Shown: positions 1,894 to 36,976 of the stretch, one piece after another | Layout: every line of letters starts with the position of its first letter | How positions within the stretch are numbered: position 1 is the stretch's first letter | Assembly: GCA_034430775.1 (NCBI GenBank) | Contig: DAOUDU010000081.1 | Span: 19,063-83,062 of the forward strand | Direction: 5' to 3' | DNA: 64,000 bases | Origin: Anaerolineales bacterium | GTDB taxonomy: Bacteria > Chloroflexota > Anaerolineae > Anaerolineales > RBG-16-64-43 | The notes under the pieces: model-generated | The model's input: the letters and a program-made list of their open reading frames with translations, nothing else | Databases searched by the model: none | What the model was told of the DNA's origin: nothing | Translations under genes and position numbers: made by a program

Positions 1894-3117
1894 TCACACG
1901 AATAGTTGAAATACGCGGTTCCCCAGCAATCGGCCGCGGGGTGTCAATCGCAGGGCATCCCCGTTCCGTGTCCATTCCAGCAAACCGTCGGCAATCGAGG
2001 AATCGATCTCTTCCCGGAAGCGATGGTAATAATCCTCGCCAAACCGGTTTTGATACGTGAACCGATCCACCCCGGCTTCGGTCAGGCGCAGACCCAGCCA
2101 CATCGCCTCGCGCAGTTCATCTTCGCGTGTGTGGAGCACGCTGCGGGAGACGGCGGGCGACAGCGGGAAGCGGCGCGCCCTCCCGCTTCGCATACGCTCG
2201 ATATATTTATCAACGGAACGGATATTGGCGTATCGTTTTCCCGCAGCACAGCCGTGCGCGCCGGCGCCGAATCCCAAATAGGGCCGGATCAGCCAATATC
2301 GCAGATTATGGCGGCAGGCAAAAGCGGGAAAATCCGTTGCCGGAGGATTACCCCGCCCCGGGTTCGCGGCCGCTTCAGCATCCTGCGCCCAGTTCGATAT
2401 CTCGTAATGCCGGTACCCCGCCGCCGCAAGCAGTCCCTCCGCCTGCTCGTACATATCCGCCGCCGCATCGGTATCCGGCGCCGCGAGTGCGCCGCGCCGG
2501 ACCGCGCGCGCAAGTTCCGTCCCGCGTTCCAGTGTGAGCGCATACAGTGAAAGATGCTCCGGCGTGAGCGACAGCGCACATACAAGCGTATGCGTCCAAG
2601 ACGTCATGGATTGCCCAGGCAGTCCGTACATTAAATCCAGGCTGAGGTTGGTAAATCCTGCGCGGTGGGCGGCTTTCGCCGAATTGTCCGCATCCGAAAA
2701 CGTATGGATGCGGCCGAGAAGGCGCAGTTCATCGTCATCCGCCGATTGCACCCCCAGGCTGAGACGGTTGATCCCGGCTTCGCGGAACGTTTTCAACCGG
2801 GCGTCATCCACCGTTCCGGGATTGGCTTCGAGCGTGATCTCCGCGTGCGGGTCGAGCCGGAACGAACTCCGGATGCTTTCCAGCAAGGCCACCACCTGCC
2901 GCGGATCAAGCAGTGAGGGCGTCCCGCCGCCGAAAAACACGCTGTCAACGGAAGGGGATCCCCCCGCTTCGCCCGTCGCTTCGATTTCGCGAATCAGCGC
3001 CCGGCTATACGCGGGAATCCGCTTGCGCATCCCTTCCGTCGAAAAGAAGTCGCAGTATTTGCAGCGCCGCAGGCAGAAGGGAAAGTGCAGATATAAACCA
3101 ACCGAATCGGGAAGCAT
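1894..3117 (-). CDS. hemW: Radical SAM heme chaperone HemW (HemN-like)
   Basis: LYLHFPFCLRRCKYCDF (CxxxCxxC), FFGGGTPS, TLEANP, RLSLGVQS, YEISNWA. Start set at the ATG at 3117 rather than the ORF-track start 3180. Confidence 0.9.
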   Translation of the reverse strand: MLPDSVGLYLHFPFCLRRCKYCDFFSTEGMRKRIPAYSRALIREIEATGEAGGSPSVDSVFFGGGTPSLLDPRQVVALLESIRSSFRLDPHAEITLEANPGTVDDARLKTFREAGINRLSLGVQSADDDELRLLGRIHTFSDADNSAKAAHRAGFTNLSLDLMYGLPGQSMTSWTHTLVCALSLTPEHLSLYALTLERGTELARAVRRGALAAPDTDAAADMYEQAEGLLAAAGYRHYEISNWAQDAEAAANPGRGNPPATDFPAFACRHNLRYWLIRPYLGFGAGAHGCAAGKRYANIRSVDKYIERMRSGRARRFPLSPAVSRSVLHTREDELREAMWLGLRLTEAGVDRFTYQNRFGEDYYHRFREEIDSSIADGLLEWTRNGDALRLTPRGRLLGNRVFQLFV

Positions 3118-3166
3118 GGCGGCTATAATATCATTTCCACTATTCCTGTCCGGCGGCGAAAACGCC

Positions 3167-3586
3167 ATGCGCAATGACATTTACCTTCAGTGCTTCCGGA
3201 ACGGCCAACCGGCGGGGTGGCCCGTACCGGCGTTGCTTCTCTTGTTCCCGATTCAAACGCGCGAGTCGTGGCCGGGTTCCTGGCACATCCGGTACGACGA
3301 ACGCAACTCCTGCGATATCGCCGTTTTCCCGTTTCCCGCCAATGGGGCGTTTATCGAATCGCTTTGCATCCATCGTCCGTGCAGCGACGCACGTCTGTGG
3401 CAGGCGCTGTTTACCCTGCTGCGCATGGGTAATGTCGTGCTGTATTCTTCCGGCGACCTTCCACCCCTAGTGGCGGAGGAGAGAGCCCTCGCCCATCTAC
3501 CGCCCGGCATGATCGAAAGCCTCGGCCCGCCGGTTTGTGTTCATTCAGCGCAGGAAAGCCAACAAGCGGTTGTATACGGAGAATAA
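3167..3586 (+). CDS. Hypothetical protein (139 aa)
   Basis: C-terminal part of track ORF 2534..3586, starting MRNDIYLQCF at 3167. Protein-like composition. Divergent from hemW, with TATAAT at 3124-3129. Confidence 0.6.
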   Translation: MRNDIYLQCFRNGQPAGWPVPALLLLFPIQTRESWPGSWHIRYDERNSCDIAVFPFPANGAFIESLCIHRPCSDARLWQALFTLLRMGNVVLYSSGDLPPLVAEERALAHLPPGMIESLGPPVCVHSAQESQQAVVYGE

Positions 3587-17668: not shown

Positions 17669-19105
17669 TTAACCTCCAAACATTCCGCCGCCGCCGAACG
17701 GTCCGCCGGACGATCCACCGGATCCACTAAAGAAAGTAGTAGGAGGATTAAGTACGATCACATCCCCTTCCTTCAGATCGCCCGAAACGACCTGGCTCAT
17801 CGTGTCGTTGCTGGCGCCGAGCATGATCTCGACCGGCTTCATCCCGCCGTTGATATACAGATAAACCACGCGTGATCCGTCAACAGTGCGTACGGCGCGG
17901 TTGGGCACCAGCAGGACATTTTCCAGATGTTCGACTTCGATCTCCACCGCCACCGTCATCCCGGGCAAGACTCTGTCATCCGGATTATTGACAACTACCG
18001 TAACCGGATAGGCGACCGATCCGGCATTGTTGGTTGCGCTTAATTTGATTTCCTGAACCGCCCCTTGAAAAACGGTGTCGAAAATCGCATCCAGCACCAA
18101 CTCGGCACGCTGGCCGACCACCAGACGGTTGTAATCCACCTCGGCGATGGGGACATCCACGTGCAATTCAGAAAGATCCGCGATCACCAGCGCCGTGGTC
18201 CCGGGATTGATGATGTCCCCCGGTCTCAGGTCAAGTGTCAGGATGGTTCCCGGGAAGGGCGCGGTAATCCGCACCTGGTCCAGGATCGCTTGGGCCGCAT
18301 CGACCCGCGCTTGGGCCGCTTTTAGGTCATTGTCGGGAACCCCGTCCTTCAAACGGTCGTAGGCGGTCTGCGCATCGGTGTAACTGGCCTTGGCGAGGTC
18401 CAGTTCCGCCGTGGCAATCTCCAGCGCCATCTCTGTGTCCTTATTGCCCCCCCCCGCTCCAACCCCCATATCAAAATATTCCTGCGCCGTCTCCAGCTCG
18501 CGCAGCGCAGCCAGGTATACCTGGTATCGCCTCGCCAATTCCTTTTGCGCGGCCCTGCTCCCGTCGTTGCTGTACCGGAAGACCATCCAATTCTGATACG
18601 CCTGCTCGGCGGCTTTCCGGGCCCGCTGTACCCAGCCCTCACTGTGATTTTCCACGGCTTCGGTATATTTGGTTTGCGCCGCATCGAGGGCTTTCTTCGC
18701 ATTAGCCAAATCCAATTCCGCCTGGGCCAGCGCCGTCTGGGAGTTCATCAGATTATCCAGGGTCTTCTGGGCATTGATCAAATCAATCTGGGCGGCGAGA
18801 ACCGCCTGCGGGTAAAAGGCCGGATCCAGCTCGATCAGCACCTGCCCGGCTTGCACGCGGTCTCCCATCCGGAAATTTACCTTCCCCACCCGACCGCTGA
18901 TTGAAAAGGAGATCGTCGCCTGTTGTTTGGCTTGGATAGAACCCGTGGCGCCGATCGACGCCGTTAATGTCCCGCGGGCAATCACCGCCGTCTGCAGGGA
19001 ACTCGCCTGCTGCCGGGTGTTCGCGTTTTGAATCAGAATCATACCAATCCCCACCGCTGCGGCCAGGATGACAAGGATCAGGATGGTTCGCCAATGCTTT
19101 TTCAT
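17669..19105 (-). CDS. Efflux periplasmic adaptor subunit (MacA/HlyD family)
   Basis: N-terminal TM, lipoyl-like SGRVGKVN...GDRVQAGQVL, long helical hairpin, ITAPFPGTIL, LLVPNRAV, Gly-rich end. SD GGAGG upstream. Confidence 0.88.
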   Translation of the reverse strand: MKKHWRTILILVILAAAVGIGMILIQNANTRQQASSLQTAVIARGTLTASIGATGSIQAKQQATISFSISGRVGKVNFRMGDRVQAGQVLIELDPAFYPQAVLAAQIDLINAQKTLDNLMNSQTALAQAELDLANAKKALDAAQTKYTEAVENHSEGWVQRARKAAEQAYQNWMVFRYSNDGSRAAQKELARRYQVYLAALRELETAQEYFDMGVGAGGGNKDTEMALEIATAELDLAKASYTDAQTAYDRLKDGVPDNDLKAAQARVDAAQAILDQVRITAPFPGTILTLDLRPGDIINPGTTALVIADLSELHVDVPIAEVDYNRLVVGQRAELVLDAIFDTVFQGAVQEIKLSATNNAGSVAYPVTVVVNNPDDRVLPGMTVAVEIEVEHLENVLLVPNRAVRTVDGSRVVYLYINGGMKPVEIMLGASNDTMSQVVSGDLKEGDVIVLNPPTTFFSGSGGSSGGPFGGGGMFGG

Positions 19106-27387: not shown

Positions 27388-28773
27388 CTACTCGCTCTCT
27401 GATTCGGAGTCGTCCGATGGATCCTTGTCGGGGACGTCCGCTACGCCCTCCTGGGAGTCATCCGATAGGTCCTTCCCGGACTCGTCCACTGCGTCCTTCC
27501 CGGAGTCATCGAATTGGTTCTTCACGGGAACGTCCGCTGCGTCCTTCTCGGAGTCATCCGACAGGTCTTTCCCGGACTCGTCCGATAGGTCCTTCATGGC
27601 TGTATCCCAATCAAGATCCGCATACTGAGCGGAGGTTACCCGGCGGATGCTCAGACCGATCCGGCGGCTTTCAACATCGATCTTGACCACCCGCAGGGTC
27701 AGGGCCTGGCCTACCTGGACGATTTCCTTGGGATGTTCCACCCGGTTTTCAGACAGCTCTGTGATATGGATTAGCCCTTCAATGTCATCGAATCCTTCAA
27801 TGCGTGCGAAGGCGCCGAATTTGGTCAGTTTTGTGATTGTGCCGCTCACCAATTGGCCCTCGGTCAGTTTGCCGCTGGCGATGCTGAAGGGATCCTCCTC
27901 CATCGACTTCATGGAGAGGCTGATCCGCTTGCGTTCCCGGTCCATACTGATGACTTTGACCTTCACCGTTTCGCCGACCTTCAGAACTTCCGAGGGGTGG
28001 CTGATCCGTTTCCAGGTGATTTCGGAGAGGTGAACCAGTCCATCCGCCCCGCCAAGGTCGACGAAAGCGCCGAAGTTGGCCAGGCTGATCACATGTCCGG
28101 TGCGGACCTCGCCCTCCTGCAGTTCCTGCAACAGCCGTTCCTTCTGGCTTTCGCGGGATTCTTTTGCGGCCGCCCGTTCCGAAAGGATCAGGCGATTCCG
28201 GCTGCGGTCGACTTCGATCACTTTGACGCAGATCGGCTCGCCGACCATCCGGCTCCATTTCTGGTCGACGGTTTCGCCCTCGCTGCGGTGACGCCGGGAG
28301 AGGCTGAATTGGGATGCCGGGACGAAACCGCGGAGATTGCCGACCTTGACAATCAATCCGCCTTTGTTGAAACCGTCCACGCGCCCCTGGAAGACCTCCT
28401 GACTTGTGCGCAAATCTTCCGCCTGCTGCCAGTCGGTTTCCTCCTGAGCCCGCGCCAGAGAGAGCACAACGTTGCCGTTGTGATCTTCCGGCACGACGAC
28501 GTAGACGTTGATTTCCTGCCCTTCCGTGAGCTTCTCGCGGGCATCAGCCGAGAGCCGATCCAATTCCCTGGACGGGATGATGCCTTCTGATTTGGTGCCG
28601 ATGGAAACGAGGATTTCCTCCGGCGTCACCCGTGCGATAGTTCCCTTGCGGACCTCGCCCTTCTTGGGGACATCGGTTCCTTGCGTATCCTGCAAGAGCT
28701 CGTTCATGGGGGTGTCGTTGCTTGGGGATTCGGCCTCGACGCCCTGGCTGGGAAGCTGACTGCGGTTTTGCAT
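27388..28773 (-). CDS. rpsA: 30S ribosomal protein S1 (four S1 domains) with an acidic repetitive tail
   Basis: Four S1 repeats (KSEGIIP, GFVPASQ, FGAFVDLGGADGLVHLSE, FGAFARI...EGLIHITE). Start set at the ATG at 28773. Confidence 0.93.
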   Translation of the reverse strand: MQNRSQLPSQGVEAESPSNDTPMNELLQDTQGTDVPKKGEVRKGTIARVTPEEILVSIGTKSEGIIPSRELDRLSADAREKLTEGQEINVYVVVPEDHNGNVVLSLARAQEETDWQQAEDLRTSQEVFQGRVDGFNKGGLIVKVGNLRGFVPASQFSLSRRHRSEGETVDQKWSRMVGEPICVKVIEVDRSRNRLILSERAAAKESRESQKERLLQELQEGEVRTGHVISLANFGAFVDLGGADGLVHLSEITWKRISHPSEVLKVGETVKVKVISMDRERKRISLSMKSMEEDPFSIASGKLTEGQLVSGTITKLTKFGAFARIEGFDDIEGLIHITELSENRVEHPKEIVQVGQALTLRVVKIDVESRRIGLSIRRVTSAQYADLDWDTAMKDLSDESGKDLSDDSEKDAADVPVKNQFDDSGKDAVDESGKDLSDDSQEGVADVPDKDPSDDSESESE

Positions 28774-28890
28774 GAAGGTATCTTTCTCCGGTGGTTTAAT
28801 GTAAGGCATTATAAAGGGAATTCCAAGGTTTTGGCAACCGCAGCCGGATATGGCTTGGATTCCGCAGCTGGGAGGTATAATTTTCCCCCT

Positions 28891-30006
28891 ATGACAACCC
28901 TGCATAATGTGTACCCATTCCCCGCTATTGCCGGGCAGGAGCGCATGAAGCGCGCCCTGCTGCTGAATGCCGTCAATCCTCGGATCGGCGGCGTATTAAT
29001 CCGCGGCGAACGCGGCACCGCCAAATCCACCGCCGCACGATCGCTGGCGGCGCTGCTCCCGGAAGTGCGTGCCGTCATCGGATGCCGTTTCGGTTGCGAT
29101 CCCGACATGCCCACCTCGTGGTGCACGGAATGCCGTGAACGCATGGCCGGCGGGGAATCCTTGCCGGTGGAAAGCCGCCGCACCGCTTTTGTGGACCTTC
29201 CCGTCTCGGCGACGGAAGACCGCGTGGTCGGAACAATGGACATCGAACGCGCGATTCAAAAAGGCGAGCGCTGGTTTGAACCGGGCGTGCTCGCCGCCGC
29301 CAACCGCGGGCTATTGTACATCGATGAAGTCAACCTGCTCGACGACCATGTCGTGGATATCCTGCTGGATTCGGCGGCCAGCGGGATGAATATCGTAGAG
29401 CGTGAAGGCATTTCGTTTGCCCATCCGGCCCGCTTCATCCTGGTGGGGACAATGAATCCGGAAGAGGGCGATTTGCGTCCGCAGCTTCTGGACCGATTCG
29501 CTCTGTGCGTGGACGTGCGCGGAATCGTGGAATTGCGCGATCGGGTGGCTATCATGGAACGCAATCTGCGGTTCGAAGGCGACCCGGAGGGATTCCGTGC
29601 GGAATGGCAGGCGCAGGAGGGTGCACTATCGGAAGAGATCGAACGCGCGCGGGAGCTGGTCGATCATGTCACCTATTCCTCCCGCGACCTGTTGACCATC
29701 GCCGGATTGACGACCTCGCTTAAAGTCGATGGCCATCGCGCGGACCTGGTCATCCTGAAAGCGGCGAGGGCACAGGCCGCGCTGGAAGGCCGCACCGTCC
29801 TCACCGATCACGATATTGCGCTGGCGGCCGAGTTGGCGCTGCCCCACCGGCTTAAACACGGCCCGTTGCAGCAGGTCGAGGCAAGCCTATTCAATCTGAA
29901 CGAGCAGATCGAGCAGGTCCAATCCGATCTGGAAACGATGGATGAGACGACCTCCGCCCCTCCCCAGAACATACCGGACGGATCGGAAAAAAAAAAGATA
30001 GCCTGA
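28891..30006 (+). CDS. Mg/Co-chelatase AAA+ subunit (ChlI/BchI-like); 5' frame of a probably frameshifted chlD-like gene
   Basis: YPFPAIAGQ, GERGTAKS, LLYIDEVNLLDDH, GTMNPEEG.LRPQLLDRF. Ends at A10 run then KKKIA-stop. Confidence 0.92.
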   Translation: MTTLHNVYPFPAIAGQERMKRALLLNAVNPRIGGVLIRGERGTAKSTAARSLAALLPEVRAVIGCRFGCDPDMPTSWCTECRERMAGGESLPVESRRTAFVDLPVSATEDRVVGTMDIERAIQKGERWFEPGVLAAANRGLLYIDEVNLLDDHVVDILLDSAASGMNIVEREGISFAHPARFILVGTMNPEEGDLRPQLLDRFALCVDVRGIVELRDRVAIMERNLRFEGDPEGFRAEWQAQEGALSEEIERARELVDHVTYSSRDLLTIAGLTTSLKVDGHRADLVILKAARAQAALEGRTVLTDHDIALAAELALPHRLKHGPLQQVEASLFNLNEQIEQVQSDLETMDETTSAPPQNIPDGSEKKKIA

Positions 30007-30950
30007 CCTCCCCCGAAGGCGGGGAGATCGATTCGGATAATTCCTCGGTTCCCCGCGCTCCGGAGCCTTCGGATTCCAAGGATGCGCCCTGGTGGGAAGG
30101 CGGCCAAAAAGCCAAAGTTGGCGCGCCGTTCGCCGCCCGCAAATTGGATACCCCGCTGGATAAGCTCGCCCGCCAGGCCAAAGGCAGGCGCTCGCGCACC
30201 CGGACCAAGGAGCGCCGGGGCCGCTATGTGCAATCCCGTTCCACTCCCGGTAAAGCAGACGATCTTGCCTTCGATGCCACTGTTAGGGCCGCGGCTCCCT
30301 TTCAAACCCAACGTACCGAGGAACGGAAGCAGGTGGCCTTCGCCGTCCGCCGCTCGGATTTCCACAGCAAGGTCCGTGTCCGCAAAGCCGGCAACCTGAT
30401 CCTTTTCGTGGTGGATGCGTCCTGGTCCATGGCGGTGGCCGAACGGATGACGGCCACCAAAGGGGCGATCCTCTCGCTCTTGACCGATGCTTATCAGCGG
30501 CGTGACCGGGTCGGGCTGGTGGTATTCCAGAAGGACCGCGCCCTCCTGGTTCTTCCCCCGACCCACTCGACGAGCTTGGCGCGCAGGGCTCTGGCCGACA
30601 TTCCGGTGGGCGGGAAGACGCCGCTTTCCGCGGGTTTGGCGCTGGCGCTCAAAACCCTGCGGATGGAAAAAATCACACACCCGGAAATCATGCCACTTAT
30701 GATTATGCTTACCGATGGGGCGGGGAATGTCGCCATTGGAACCCAACCGCCGCTGGCCGAGGCCTACCGGATCGCGGACGCCATCTGCGCGCAGAAGCTT
30801 CGCAGCGTCGTGGTGAATATGGAACACGCCGCCTTCGACCAGGGGCTGGCCGGCGAACTGGCGGTCCATCTCGGCGCACGGTGTTACACCCTGCGTGACC
30901 TTCGCGCCGAATCACTGTATCAAACGGTGCGTGGAGAGCTGACACCGTAG
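29946..30950 (+). CDS. ChlD-type linker + von Willebrand A domain, in the -1 frame relative to 28891..30006
   Basis: Frame open from 29946 (after TGA 29943-29945) with no ATG/SD start. MIDAS DASWS, GGKTPL, LTDG. Confidence 0.85.
   Translation, partial: DDLRPSPEHTGRIGKKKDSLTSPEGGEIDSDNSSVPRAPEPSDSKDAPWWEGGQKAKVGAPFAARKLDTPLDKLARQAKGRRSRTRTKERRGRYVQSRSTPGKADDLAFDATVRAAAPFQTQRTEERKQVAFAVRRSDFHSKVRVRKAGNLILFVVDASWSMAVAERMTATKGAILSLLTDAYQRRDRVGLVVFQKDRALLVLPPTHSTSLARRALADIPVGGKTPLSAGLALALKTLRMEKITHPEIMPLMIMLTDGAGNVAIGTQPPLAEAYRIADAICAQKLRSVVVNMEHAAFDQGLAGELAVHLGARCYTLRDLRAESLYQTVRGELTP
29987..30029 (+). other. Candidate programmed -1 frameshift / transcriptional slippage signal
   Basis: A10 run 29987-29996 containing A_AAA_AAG (29991-29997), followed by hairpin GA-C-CTCCCC/GGGGAG-A-TC (30005-30029). 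Confidence 0.75.
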
Positions 30951-30990: not shown

Positions 30991-31036
30991 GCCCCCCCTC
31001 TCCCCCTTTCCCCTAGGGGAAGGGGGAGAGGGGGGC
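30991..31036. repeat. Purine/pyrimidine REP-like hairpin (CCCCT..TTCCCCTAGGGGAAGGGGG family)
   Basis: About 20-bp imperfect inverted repeat. The same core TTCCCCTAGGGGAAGGGG recurs near 63980. Confidence 0.65.
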
Positions 31037-33553: not shown

Positions 33554-33594
33554 AAAAAAAAGACCGCCTTGGAAAGACCAAGGCGGTCTTTTTT
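33554..33594. terminator. Bidirectional terminator built from an AGACCGCCTTGG-family palindrome
   Basis: A8-GACCGCCTTGG-AAAGA-CCAAGGCGGTC-T6 between convergent genes. Confidence 0.85.
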
Positions 33595-36945: not shown

Positions 36946-36976
36946 AAAAAAAAAGGCCAACCGTAAAGGCTGGCCT
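36946..36976 (-). terminator. Intrinsic terminator after tsf
   Basis: Minus strand AGGCCAGCC-TTTAC-GGTTGGCCT followed by a T run. Confidence 0.75.

What the first reader, a model, noticed from the sequence alone, without database searches (positions are those of the whole stretch)
28891..30950. ChlD-like chelatase gene with a programmed -1 frameshift signature: two subunits from one gene, with no large chelatase subunit nearby
Seen: the AAA+ (ChlI-like) frame ends ...GSEKKKIA-stop. The VWA frame is the -1 frame, is open only from 29946, and has no start codon or SD. The 60-nt overlap contains an A10 run with A_AAA_AAG (29991-29997) and a GC hairpin 7-10 nt downstream. Shifting -1 gives a continuous, sensible linker (KKKDSLTSPEGGEIDSDNSS...KVGAPFAARKLDTPLD) and a ~686-aa ChlD-like protein next to a 371-aa ChlI-like protein. 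Established: A_AAA_AAG plus a stem-loop is the dnaX-type -1 signal, and programmed frameshifting yielding both I- and D-type subunits has been reported for chlD genes. Inference: no CobN/ChlH or other tetrapyrrole gene flanks this locus, so the recoded I/D motor may serve a different partner.
Basis: partly seen in the sequence, partly recalled or inferred. Interest (0 to 1): 0.75.

Follow-up and report, generated by a model that had tools for sequence, protein, structure and literature searches.

The report
Frameshifted chlD chelatase-motor gene (known kind)
One gene in an Anaerolineae-type (Chloroflexota) bacterium makes both a short ATPase and a long ATPase-plus-VWA protein by slipping one base back on a run of ten A's; the signal is real and conserved, but this recoding, including the versions with no large chelatase subunit, has already been published.

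Summary
ATG 28891 opens a 371-aa ChlI-type AAA+ ORF that ends at TGA 30004-30006. The VWA/MIDAS part lies in the -1 frame. The 58-nt overlap holds an A10 run (29987-29996), the longest homopolymer in the window.

It is not an assembly error. Four independent assemblies of this species all carry A10, and their 12 SNPs are all synonymous in the proposed frames. Of 77 related Chloroflexota loci, 62 have the same -1 break, 5 a +1 break and 10 are in frame. 74 of the 77 keep an A7-A11 run at that spot.

The downstream hairpin is not conserved. Only short-run relatives have strong hairpins.

CobN lies beside 31 of 58 distant in-frame relatives, beside 0 of 76 clade loci, and nowhere in the 64-kb window.

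The mechanism is programmed slippage giving I-like and D-like subunits. Ribosomal and transcriptional slippage cannot be separated here.

All of this matches published work (Antonov 2013 and 2020; Kuznetsov 2022). That work tested poly-A chlD signals experimentally and noted Anaerolineae fs-chlD genes without a large subunit. This is a new member of a known kind, and its cellular function is still unknown.

The parts
28876..28881 (+). TATAAT hexamer 9 nt upstream of the ATG, with GGGAGG at 28870-28875 directly before it. Possible promoter -10 giving a nearly leaderless mRNA (tentative).
   Evidence: Read from the sequence. Relatives have TATAAT 16-21 nt upstream followed by GGAG. The consensus scan did not call a + strand promoter here.
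28891..30006 (+). Frame-0 ORF: 371-aa ChlI-type AAA+ ATPase, the short 'I-like' product. Walker A is GERGTAKS. It ends ...GSEKKKIA-TGA.
   Evidence: Pfam AAA_lid_2, Mg_chelatase and AAA_5. TIGR02030 at 415 bits. ChlI 8osf at E 5e-99.
29987..29996 (+). A10 slippery run. The heptamer A_AAA_AAG at 29991-29997 is in phase with frame 0. This is the site of the -1 slip, by the ribosome and/or by RNA polymerase adding one A.
   Evidence: only homopolymer of 10 or more in the window. Runs of A7-A11 at the same site in 74 of 77 clade loci. A10 in four independent assemblies.
30004..30030 (+). GC stem-loop starting 7 nt after the heptamer (core stem after 10 nt), with the frame-0 stop codon in its base. 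Possible but unproven stimulator.
   Evidence: -13.8 kcal/mol, z -1.9 in isolation. Not significant in longer context. Downstream structure is not conserved in the clade.
29997..30950 (+). -1 frame continuation: acidic/Pro-rich linker, the WWEGG and AAPxQ regions, and a VWA domain with MIDAS motif DASWS. Joined to residues 1-369 it gives the 686-aa ChlD-like long product.
   Evidence: VWA_2 and VWA. TIGR02442 matched end to end at 774 bits. BchD integrin-I domain 2x31_A at E 4.5e-19. Nine strain SNPs are all synonymous in this frame.
30991..31036 (+). Long GC-rich palindrome 40 nt after the stop codon, with no T tail. Likely a transcript-end or stabilising hairpin, which suggests the gene is monocistronic.
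   Evidence: The 110-nt fold is -59.9 kcal/mol, z -5.3. No intrinsic-terminator consensus was called.

Best explanation
This is a frameshifted chlD (fs-chlD) gene. Standard decoding from ATG 28891 gives a 371-aa ChlI-type AAA+ ATPase that stops two codons after an A10 run.

In a fraction of expression events the reading frame moves back one base at the run. This can happen in two ways. Lys-tRNAs on AAA-AAG can re-pair on A_AAA_AAG. Alternatively, RNA polymerase can stutter and make an A11 transcript. Both routes give the same junction, ...GSEKKK-DSLTSPEGG..., and a 686-aa ChlD-like protein. That protein has the same AAA+ module, a flexible acidic linker and a VWA/MIDAS domain.

By analogy with BchI/BchD, the two products are expected to assemble into an I/D two-ring ATP-driven motor. 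That step is inferred.

Shown here:
- the frame architecture;
- its conservation;
- purifying selection in both frames;
- reproducibility of the run length;
- the local absence of CobN.

Inferred:
- that slippage actually occurs and how efficient it is;
- that the complex forms;
- what the motor acts on.

The client is unknown. The clade never has CobN next door.
For: - Architecture and domains.
- The same -1 break with an A-run occurs in 62 of 77 Anaerolineae-clade loci from many independent assemblies. The frame-0 stop lies 0-18 codons after the run, within 3 codons in most.
- The exact short protein sits on 18 contigs. Four assemblies, three of them differing by 12 SNPs, all have A10.
- All 12 SNPs are synonymous in the proposed frames and almost all are non-synonymous in the other frames.
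- Invariant residues W401, W402, G404, G405 and F414 lie upstream of the first possible -1 frame start codon, TTG 30144.
- In-frame relatives keep pure A7-A11 runs or KK/KKK at the same place in an otherwise hypervariable linker.
- Short-run relatives have the heptamer exactly in phase (A7 always phase 2; L127 has C_CCA_AAA) and stronger hairpins.
- Published reporter tests of chlD poly-A cassettes gave 63% (A11), 40% (A9) and 10% (A7) frameshifting in E. coli (PMC3711429).
Against: - There is no direct evidence for the long product or for RNA heterogeneity in this organism.
- The downstream hairpin is statistically weak and not conserved.
- No SD-like GGAG/GAGG lies within 20 nt upstream of the heptamer (sequence).
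- Five relatives have the VWA part in the +1 frame and ten are in frame. The frame configuration itself is therefore not fixed, and some of this variation could be homopolymer miscalls in metagenome assemblies.
Confidence: 0.85

Rival explanations
1. The slip is mainly or wholly transcriptional. RNA polymerase stutters on the A10/T10 tract and makes a mixed population of A9, A10 and A11 mRNAs. The ribosome then reads each normally, as in Thermus thermophilus dnaX. This is a rival only for the step at which slippage occurs, not for the two-products-from-one-gene outcome.
For: - Runs of 9 or more A's dominate: A9 in 47 and A10 in 15 of 74 distinct junctions. They show no downstream structure (mean z about 0).
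- The run phase relative to frame 0 varies among phases 0, 1 and 2.
- All three frame configurations occur with the run retained, with at least 7 switches on the tree. This is expected if RNA-level insertions and deletions give access to every frame.
- Runs longer than 7 A's are the known motif for programmed transcriptional realignment (PMC3711429).
Against: - An A9 or A10 run contains a valid X_XXY_YYZ heptamer in any phase, so phase freedom does not exclude the ribosome.
- Relatives with A7 (always phase 2, strong hairpins) and L127 (C_CCA_AAA, only four A's) can hardly use RNA polymerase slippage.
- The window's heptamer A_AAA_AAG is the classic ribosomal site.
Confidence: 0.35
2. Assembly or sequencing homopolymer error. 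The real genome has A11 and a plain in-frame 686-aa chlD.
For: A11 would restore the frame with the same protein. Many homologs at 62-70% identity are in frame. Raw reads could not be inspected.
Against: - A10 is found in four independent assemblies, three of them strain variants, and the exact short protein is on 18 contigs.
- The same -1 break occurs in 62 related loci from different projects and assemblers.
Confidence: 0.03
3. Two separate genes. A ChlI-like ATPase and an independently initiated 268-aa VWA protein starting at TTG 30144, as gene callers annotate it, with no recoding.
For: Gene callers predict exactly this pair. In some other gene clusters, Antonov 2013 saw internal initiation together with frameshifting.
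Against: - Invariant residues (WWEGG, F414) and continuous homology lie upstream of TTG 30144 in the -1 frame.
- There is no ATG, GTG or TTG between 29946 and 30144.
- Homologs are fused across this region.
- The A-run is conserved exactly at the frame junction.
Confidence: 0.05
4. DNA-level phase variation or an ordinary inactivating mutation. Replication slippage on the run switches the D-type product on and off, or the gene is decaying.
For: Frame state differs between related genomes and has changed at least 7 times on the tree. Poly-A tracts are also slippery for DNA polymerase (PMC3711429).
Against: - The -1 'off' state is by far the commonest, in 62 of 77 loci.
- It is identical in four strain-level assemblies.
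- The downstream frame shows only synonymous strain SNPs and 60-70% protein conservation across the clade. This is incompatible with decay or with a usually silent segment.
Confidence: 0.04

Closest known systems
Frameshifted chlD (fs-chlD) genes: Antonov et al. 2013 NAR (PMC3711429); Antonov 2020 Mol Biol Evol 37:2268 (not held, cited via PMC9227772); Kuznetsov, Milenkin & Antonov 2022 (PMC9227772)
   Same: - A ChlI-like N-terminal part and a VWA C-terminal part in the -1 frame.
- An A-rich slippery run in the linker.
- Two chelatase-type subunits from one gene.
- Chloroflexi/Anaerolineae members in genomes lacking chlH/cobN and the B12 and chlorophyll pathways ('stage 1'), with function stated to be unknown.
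- Poly-A cassettes tested at 10-63% efficiency in E. coli.
   Different: This particular gene and organism (an uncultured Anaerolineae-type MAG lineage) has not been tested.

I did not find two points in the papers I could read. First, in-frame and +1 relatives retain the run. Second, hairpins accompany only short runs. The 2020 paper could not be read, so these may already be described.
dnaX tau/gamma recoding (E. coli -1 PRF at A_AAA_AAG; Thermus thermophilus transcriptional slippage at A9)
   Same: The same heptamer and the same logic: a full-length and a truncated AAA+ protein sharing an N-terminal ATPase module, made at a set ratio from one gene. The in-frame relatives of this gene have the E. 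coli dnaX arrangement, where the slip gives the short form.
   Different: - In the window the shift makes the long form, not the short one.
- No upstream SD-like element is present.
- The hairpin is weak and not conserved.
- The protein family is unrelated apart from the AAA+ fold.
BchI/BchD and ChlI/ChlD motor of Mg-chelatase, and the ChlI/ChlD-type subunits used with CobN as cobaltochelatase (TIGR02442)
   Same: - The N part is 5e-99 to ChlI structures and the C part matches the BchD integrin-I domain.
- Walker A and B and the MIDAS DxSxS motif are present.
- The match to TIGR02442 is end to end.
   Different: - No CobN/ChlH in the window or beside any of 76 clade loci.
- The TIGR02442 score of 774.2 is just under the 779.45 cut-off.
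- The D-type product has a fully I-like, presumably active, AAA+ module.
- MIDAS is DASWS instead of the DASGS found in CobN-linked relatives.
MoxR-type AAA+ with VWA partner (e.g. RavA-ViaA)
   Same: This is an analogy for function only: an AAA+ ATPase paired with a VWA/MIDAS protein that acts on other client proteins without a chelatase large subunit. The Walker A has Ala before the Lys (GxxGxAKS). The comparison rests on my own knowledge.
   Different: It is a different AAA+ clade. The window protein is a ChlI orthologue by sequence. MoxR/VWA pairs are separate genes and use no recoding. The comparison was not tested here.

Membership tests
fs-chlD (frameshifted chlD) | N-terminal ChlI-like AAA+ module followed, in another frame, by a ChlD-type linker and VWA domain | tested here: met
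fs-chlD (frameshifted chlD) | A-rich slippery site at the frame junction, with the frame-0 stop close behind | tested here: met
   A10 with A_AAA_AAG; the stop is 2 codons later
fs-chlD (frameshifted chlD) | Frame break and slippery site conserved among homologs from different genomes | tested here: met
   62 of 77 clade loci are in -1 and 74 of 77 have an A7-A11 run. The same A10 occurs in 4 assemblies.
fs-chlD (frameshifted chlD) | Both products actually made (frameshift product observed) | not testable with these tools
   No read, proteome or reporter data. There are only published tests on other chlD cassettes.
dnaX-type -1 PRF signal | X_XXY_YYZ heptamer (A_AAA_AAG) in phase with the incoming frame | tested here: met
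   29991-29997 with codons AAA AAG in frame 0
dnaX-type -1 PRF signal | Stimulatory stem-loop 5-8 nt downstream | tested here: inconclusive
   A stem-loop exists (-13.8 kcal/mol, z -1.9). It is not significant in context and downstream structure is not conserved in the clade (mean z -0.09, n = 74).
dnaX-type -1 PRF signal | Internal SD-like element about 10 nt upstream | tested here: not met
   No GGAG, GAGG or AGGA in 29965-29990; only GGA triplets (sequence)
Programmed transcriptional realignment (RNA polymerase slippage) | Homopolymer of 8-9 or more A/T at the frame junction, with homologs in both + and - configurations | tested here: met
   A10 in the window. Clade states are -1, +1 and in frame, all with the run.
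Programmed transcriptional realignment (RNA polymerase slippage) | Transcripts heterogeneous in run length relative to DNA | not testable with these tools
Class I ATP-dependent chelatase (ChlIDH / CobN + ChlID) | Large porphyrin-binding subunit (CobN/ChlH, PF02514) encoded with, or at least in the same genome as, the I/D subunits | tested here: not met
   No tblastn hit to CobN in the 64-kb window or in 816 kb of flanks of 76 clade loci, against 31 of 58 non-clade loci. The rest of the genome could not be searched.
NCBIfam TIGR02442 'putative cobaltochelatase' | Whole-protein score at or above the curated cut-off (779.45 bits) | tested here: not met
   774.2 bits, aligned 8-668 to profile positions 1-640 of 641. 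This is a marginal miss; the protein is clearly homologous.

The most novel reading that the evidence does not exclude
In this Anaerolineae clade the conserved element is the poly-A run itself, not the frame arrangement. Genes in the -1, +1 and in-frame states all keep it, so all of them would make both an I-type and a D-type protein. The I:D ratio would be set by run length and configuration, partly through RNA polymerase stuttering. The resulting I/D motor, which never has CobN beside it and carries a clade-specific DASWS MIDAS motif, would work on a client other than a tetrapyrrole chelatase large subunit. That would be a free-standing ChlI/ChlD machine with a new cellular role.
Probability: 0.3. 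Interest if true: 0.6.

Novelty: new member of a known kind. Interest (0 to 1): 0.3.

Why it matters
The gene should be annotated as one recoded chlD-type gene, not as 'Mg-chelatase subunit I' plus a 268-aa VWA protein as current gene calls have it.

The recoding itself is textbook-level known for this family. The open question is what an I/D motor does in bacteria that show no CobN/ChlH at the locus. In cultured Anaerolineae the large subunit is absent from the whole genome (PMC9227772).

This clade is abundant in metagenomes and has a well-conserved signal. The gene sits in a housekeeping neighbourhood, divergent from rpsA. That makes it a reasonable place to look for the answer.

Tried and rejected
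- **Raw-read check of the run length.** I replaced it with independent assemblies carrying the identical short protein.
- **Hairpin as a conserved stimulator.** Rejected after folding 74 distinct junctions.
- **Assembly error, pseudogene, separate initiation, phase variation.** Rejected as main explanations on conservation, synonymous SNPs and residues conserved upstream of any start codon.
- **A conserved operon partner.** All-against-all clustering of flank ORFs found only the divergent rpsA and its upstream synteny, and nothing downstream.
- **A second chlI copy.** None in the window or the clade flanks.
- **CobN among long ORFs in clade flanks.** Those tested are TPR/BTAD, beta-helix and GH25 proteins.
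- **Antonov 2020 (MBE).** Could not be opened.
Full report
**1. The observation**

- ATG 28891 opens a 371-aa ORF ending ...GSEKKKIA, with the stop at TGA 30004-30006.
- The frame one base back is closed by a stop at 29943-29945. It then runs open to 30948-30950.
- The overlap of about 58 nt holds A10 at 29987-29996, with A_AAA_AAG at 29991-29997 in phase with frame 0. This is the only homopolymer of ten or more in the 64-kb window, which is 59% G+C.
- Slipping back one base after the AAG codon joins residues 1-369 to DSLTSPEGG... and gives a 686-aa protein.
- The N part hits AAA_lid_2, Mg_chelatase and AAA_5. The C part hits VWA_2 and VWA.
- The fused protein aligns end to end with NCBIfam TIGR02442 'putative cobaltochelatase', at 774.2 bits against a cut-off of 779.45.
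- The N part matches ChlI structures at E 5e-99. The C part matches the BchD integrin-I domain at E 4.5e-19.
- The first possible start codon in the -1 frame is TTG 30144. Residues W401, W402, G404, G405 and F414, which are invariant in 21 homologs, lie upstream of it.

**2. Is it an artefact?**

A11 would restore the frame, so a homopolymer miscall was the first rival. Raw reads could not be examined. Three other lines exclude it.

- *Independent assemblies.* The exact 371-aa protein requires the same frame break, and it sits on 18 public contigs. I read four of them. One NCBI MAG contig differs from the window by 1 SNP in the gene. Three JGI metagenome contigs differ by 12 SNPs in the 2060 nt. 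All four have A10.
- *Selection in both frames.* All 12 strain SNPs are synonymous when read in frame 0 before the run and in frame -1 after it. Nearly all would change the protein in the other frames. Both halves are therefore under purifying selection in exactly the proposed frames.
- *Related genomes.* Scans of GTDB species genomes and of JGI metagenomes returned 160 loci.
  - Of 77 loci whose N part is at least 60% identical (Anaerolineae and other Chloroflexota MAGs), 62 have the VWA part in the -1 frame, 5 in the +1 frame and 10 in frame.
  - 74 of the 77 have an A7-A11 run at the junction, mostly A9 or A10.
  - The frame-0 stop follows the run within 3 codons in most -1 loci, with a range of 0-18.

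**3. The in-frame relatives**

The protein database returned 120 full-length fused homologs at 62-70% identity.
- 102 of the 103 that could be anchored have KK, KKK or KKKK at the same place in an otherwise hypervariable acidic linker.
- Wherever I obtained the DNA (L001, L002, L004, L081-L085, L165-L168), the lysines are encoded by a pure A7-A11 run. The one exception was L003.
- Elsewhere in these genes Lys is AAA only 55% of the time.
- The -1 frame closes 0-16 codons after the run in these in-frame genes.
- On a neighbour-joining tree the frame state changes at least 7 times, with -1 inferred as ancestral for the sample.

What is conserved is therefore the slippery run rather than one frame arrangement. 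An in-frame gene with the run resembles E. coli dnaX, where the slip makes the short form. The window's arrangement is the reverse.

**4. Mechanism**

The downstream hairpin in the window folds at -13.8 kcal/mol in isolation (z -1.9). It is out-competed and not significant in 76-nt and 116-nt contexts.
- Across 74 distinct junctions, the 40 nt after the run are no more structured than shuffles (mean z -0.09).
- Only the A7 and A8 loci have strong hairpins. Run length correlates with MFE at Spearman rho 0.25, p 0.035.
- The A7 loci always have the run in the one phase that gives an in-frame A_AAA_AAA.
- L127 has no long run but carries a canonical C_CCA_AAA heptamer. Short-run members therefore look like ribosomal -1 PRF.
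- For A9 and A10 runs, the lack of structure, the free phase and the occurrence of all three frame states fit RNA polymerase stuttering equally well.
- Published reporter assays on chlD cassettes gave 63% (A11), 40% (A9) and 10% (A7) in E. coli. They do not separate the two steps (PMC3711429).

I therefore commit to programmed slippage at the A10 run, at the ribosome and/or the polymerase. It would yield roughly comparable amounts of a 40-kDa I-type and a 75-kDa D-type protein, which assemble into an I/D AAA+/VWA motor. The slippage itself, its efficiency and the complex are inferred, not shown.

**5. Context**

The window is a housekeeping chromosomal region. It contains mfd, leuS, metG, priA, rpoD, coaE, and the cluster rpsB-tsf-pyrH-frr-uppS-cdsA.
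- The gene is divergent from rpsA. It is followed by a strong GC palindrome and then by sppA.
- The only tetrapyrrole-flavoured domain is a radical-SAM/HemN_C protein 26 kb away.
- CobN (PF02514, identified in L013 and L007) lies beside 31 of 58 distant in-frame relatives from archaea, Dehalococcoidia and Streptomyces. It lies beside 0 of 76 clade loci (816 kb of flanks) and is absent from the window.
- The four in-frame clade genes I looked up also lack it.
- The only conserved neighbour is the divergent rpsA, in 33 of 58 loci with enough upstream sequence. Nothing downstream is conserved.
- There is no second chlI.

Whether the source genome has cobN elsewhere could not be tested.

**6. What is known**

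- Antonov et al. 2013 (PMC3711429) described a cluster of -1 frameshifted Mg-chelatase genes with poly-A sites and tested three of them. The cluster included the Chloroflexi genus Herpetosiphon.
- Kuznetsov, Milenkin and Antonov 2022 (PMC9227772) list Brevefilum fermentans, Anaerolinea thermophila, Ornatilinea, Longilinea, Levilinea and Spirochaeta thermophila as carriers of fs-chlD in genomes lacking chlH/cobN and the chlorophyll and B12 pathways. They state that the function of I+D without a large subunit is unknown.

Both the recoding and the 'orphan motor' point are therefore published for this very group. The window's gene is a new, well-supported member.

Three points may add something, and all would need checking against the 2020 paper:
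- the run is retained in the in-frame and +1 relatives;
- hairpins occur only with short runs;
- the clade differs from CobN-linked relatives in its MIDAS motif (DASWS against DASGS).

**7. Verdict**

It is not novel in kind. Interest is 0.3. The main residual value lies in correcting the annotation and in the still unanswered question of what this motor does.

Noticed in passing
window 30991-31036: A long, almost perfect GC-rich palindrome (CCCCCCCTCTCCCCCTTTCCCC/GGGGAAGGGGGAGAGGGGGG) lies 40 nt after the gene's stop. The 110-nt fold is -59.9 kcal/mol, z -5.3. It has no T tail, so it is not a classical intrinsic terminator.
   Followed up: partly
window 28870-28893: GGGAGG is followed directly by TATAAT, which ends only 9 nt before the ATG. 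If TATAAT is the -10 box, the mRNA is nearly leaderless and the GGGAGG is not a usable SD. In relatives TATAAT sits 16-21 nt upstream and is followed by GGAG.
   Followed up: partly
window 27388-28809 (-) and clade loci: A divergently transcribed rpsA (ribosomal protein S1) is the only conserved neighbour of the gene, in 33 of 58 clade loci. clpC and radA lie further upstream in some. No functional link is evident.
   Followed up: partly
window 29083-29133 (residues C65, C69, C78, C81): A four-Cys motif, CRFGCDPD...WCTEC, sits in the AAA+ insertion where cyanobacterial ChlI has no cysteines. It is present in 67 of 76 clade loci and most non-clade loci, and looks like a zinc-binding knuckle typical of the TIGR02442 branch.
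   Followed up: partly
window about 30414-30428 (MIDAS motif D509-S513): The MIDAS motif is DASWS in 66 of 76 clade loci, which lack CobN nearby. It is DASGS in 47 of 58 CobN-linked distant relatives. This may mark a different binding partner.
   Followed up: no
L069, L086, L141, L145, L151: Five relatives have the VWA part in the +1 frame, with A8-A10 runs. Either they need a different slip (loss of one A in the RNA, or a -2/+1 ribosomal shift) or they are homopolymer miscalls.
   Followed up: no
L127:7020-7194: One relative has the -1 break without a long A-run. It carries ACC CCC CCA AAA GCA TAA, which is a C_CCA_AAA heptamer with the stop two codons later.
   Followed up: partly
window 1894-3180 (-): A radical-SAM plus HemN_C protein (HemW/HemN-like) is the only tetrapyrrole-related domain found in the window.
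   Followed up: no
window 36946-36954, 33554-33561, 18447-18455: Other long homopolymers: A9 between pyrH and tsf, A8 between the 494-aa ORF and cdsA (both intergenic by the gene calls), and C9 inside the 17669-19105 (-) ORF.
   Followed up: no
window 30144-30950 / L161:11254-12060: Public gene calls split the locus into a 371-aa 'Mg chelatase' and a 268-aa VWA protein starting at TTG. This cuts off about 50 conserved residues. The annotation should be a single recoded gene.
   Followed up: yes
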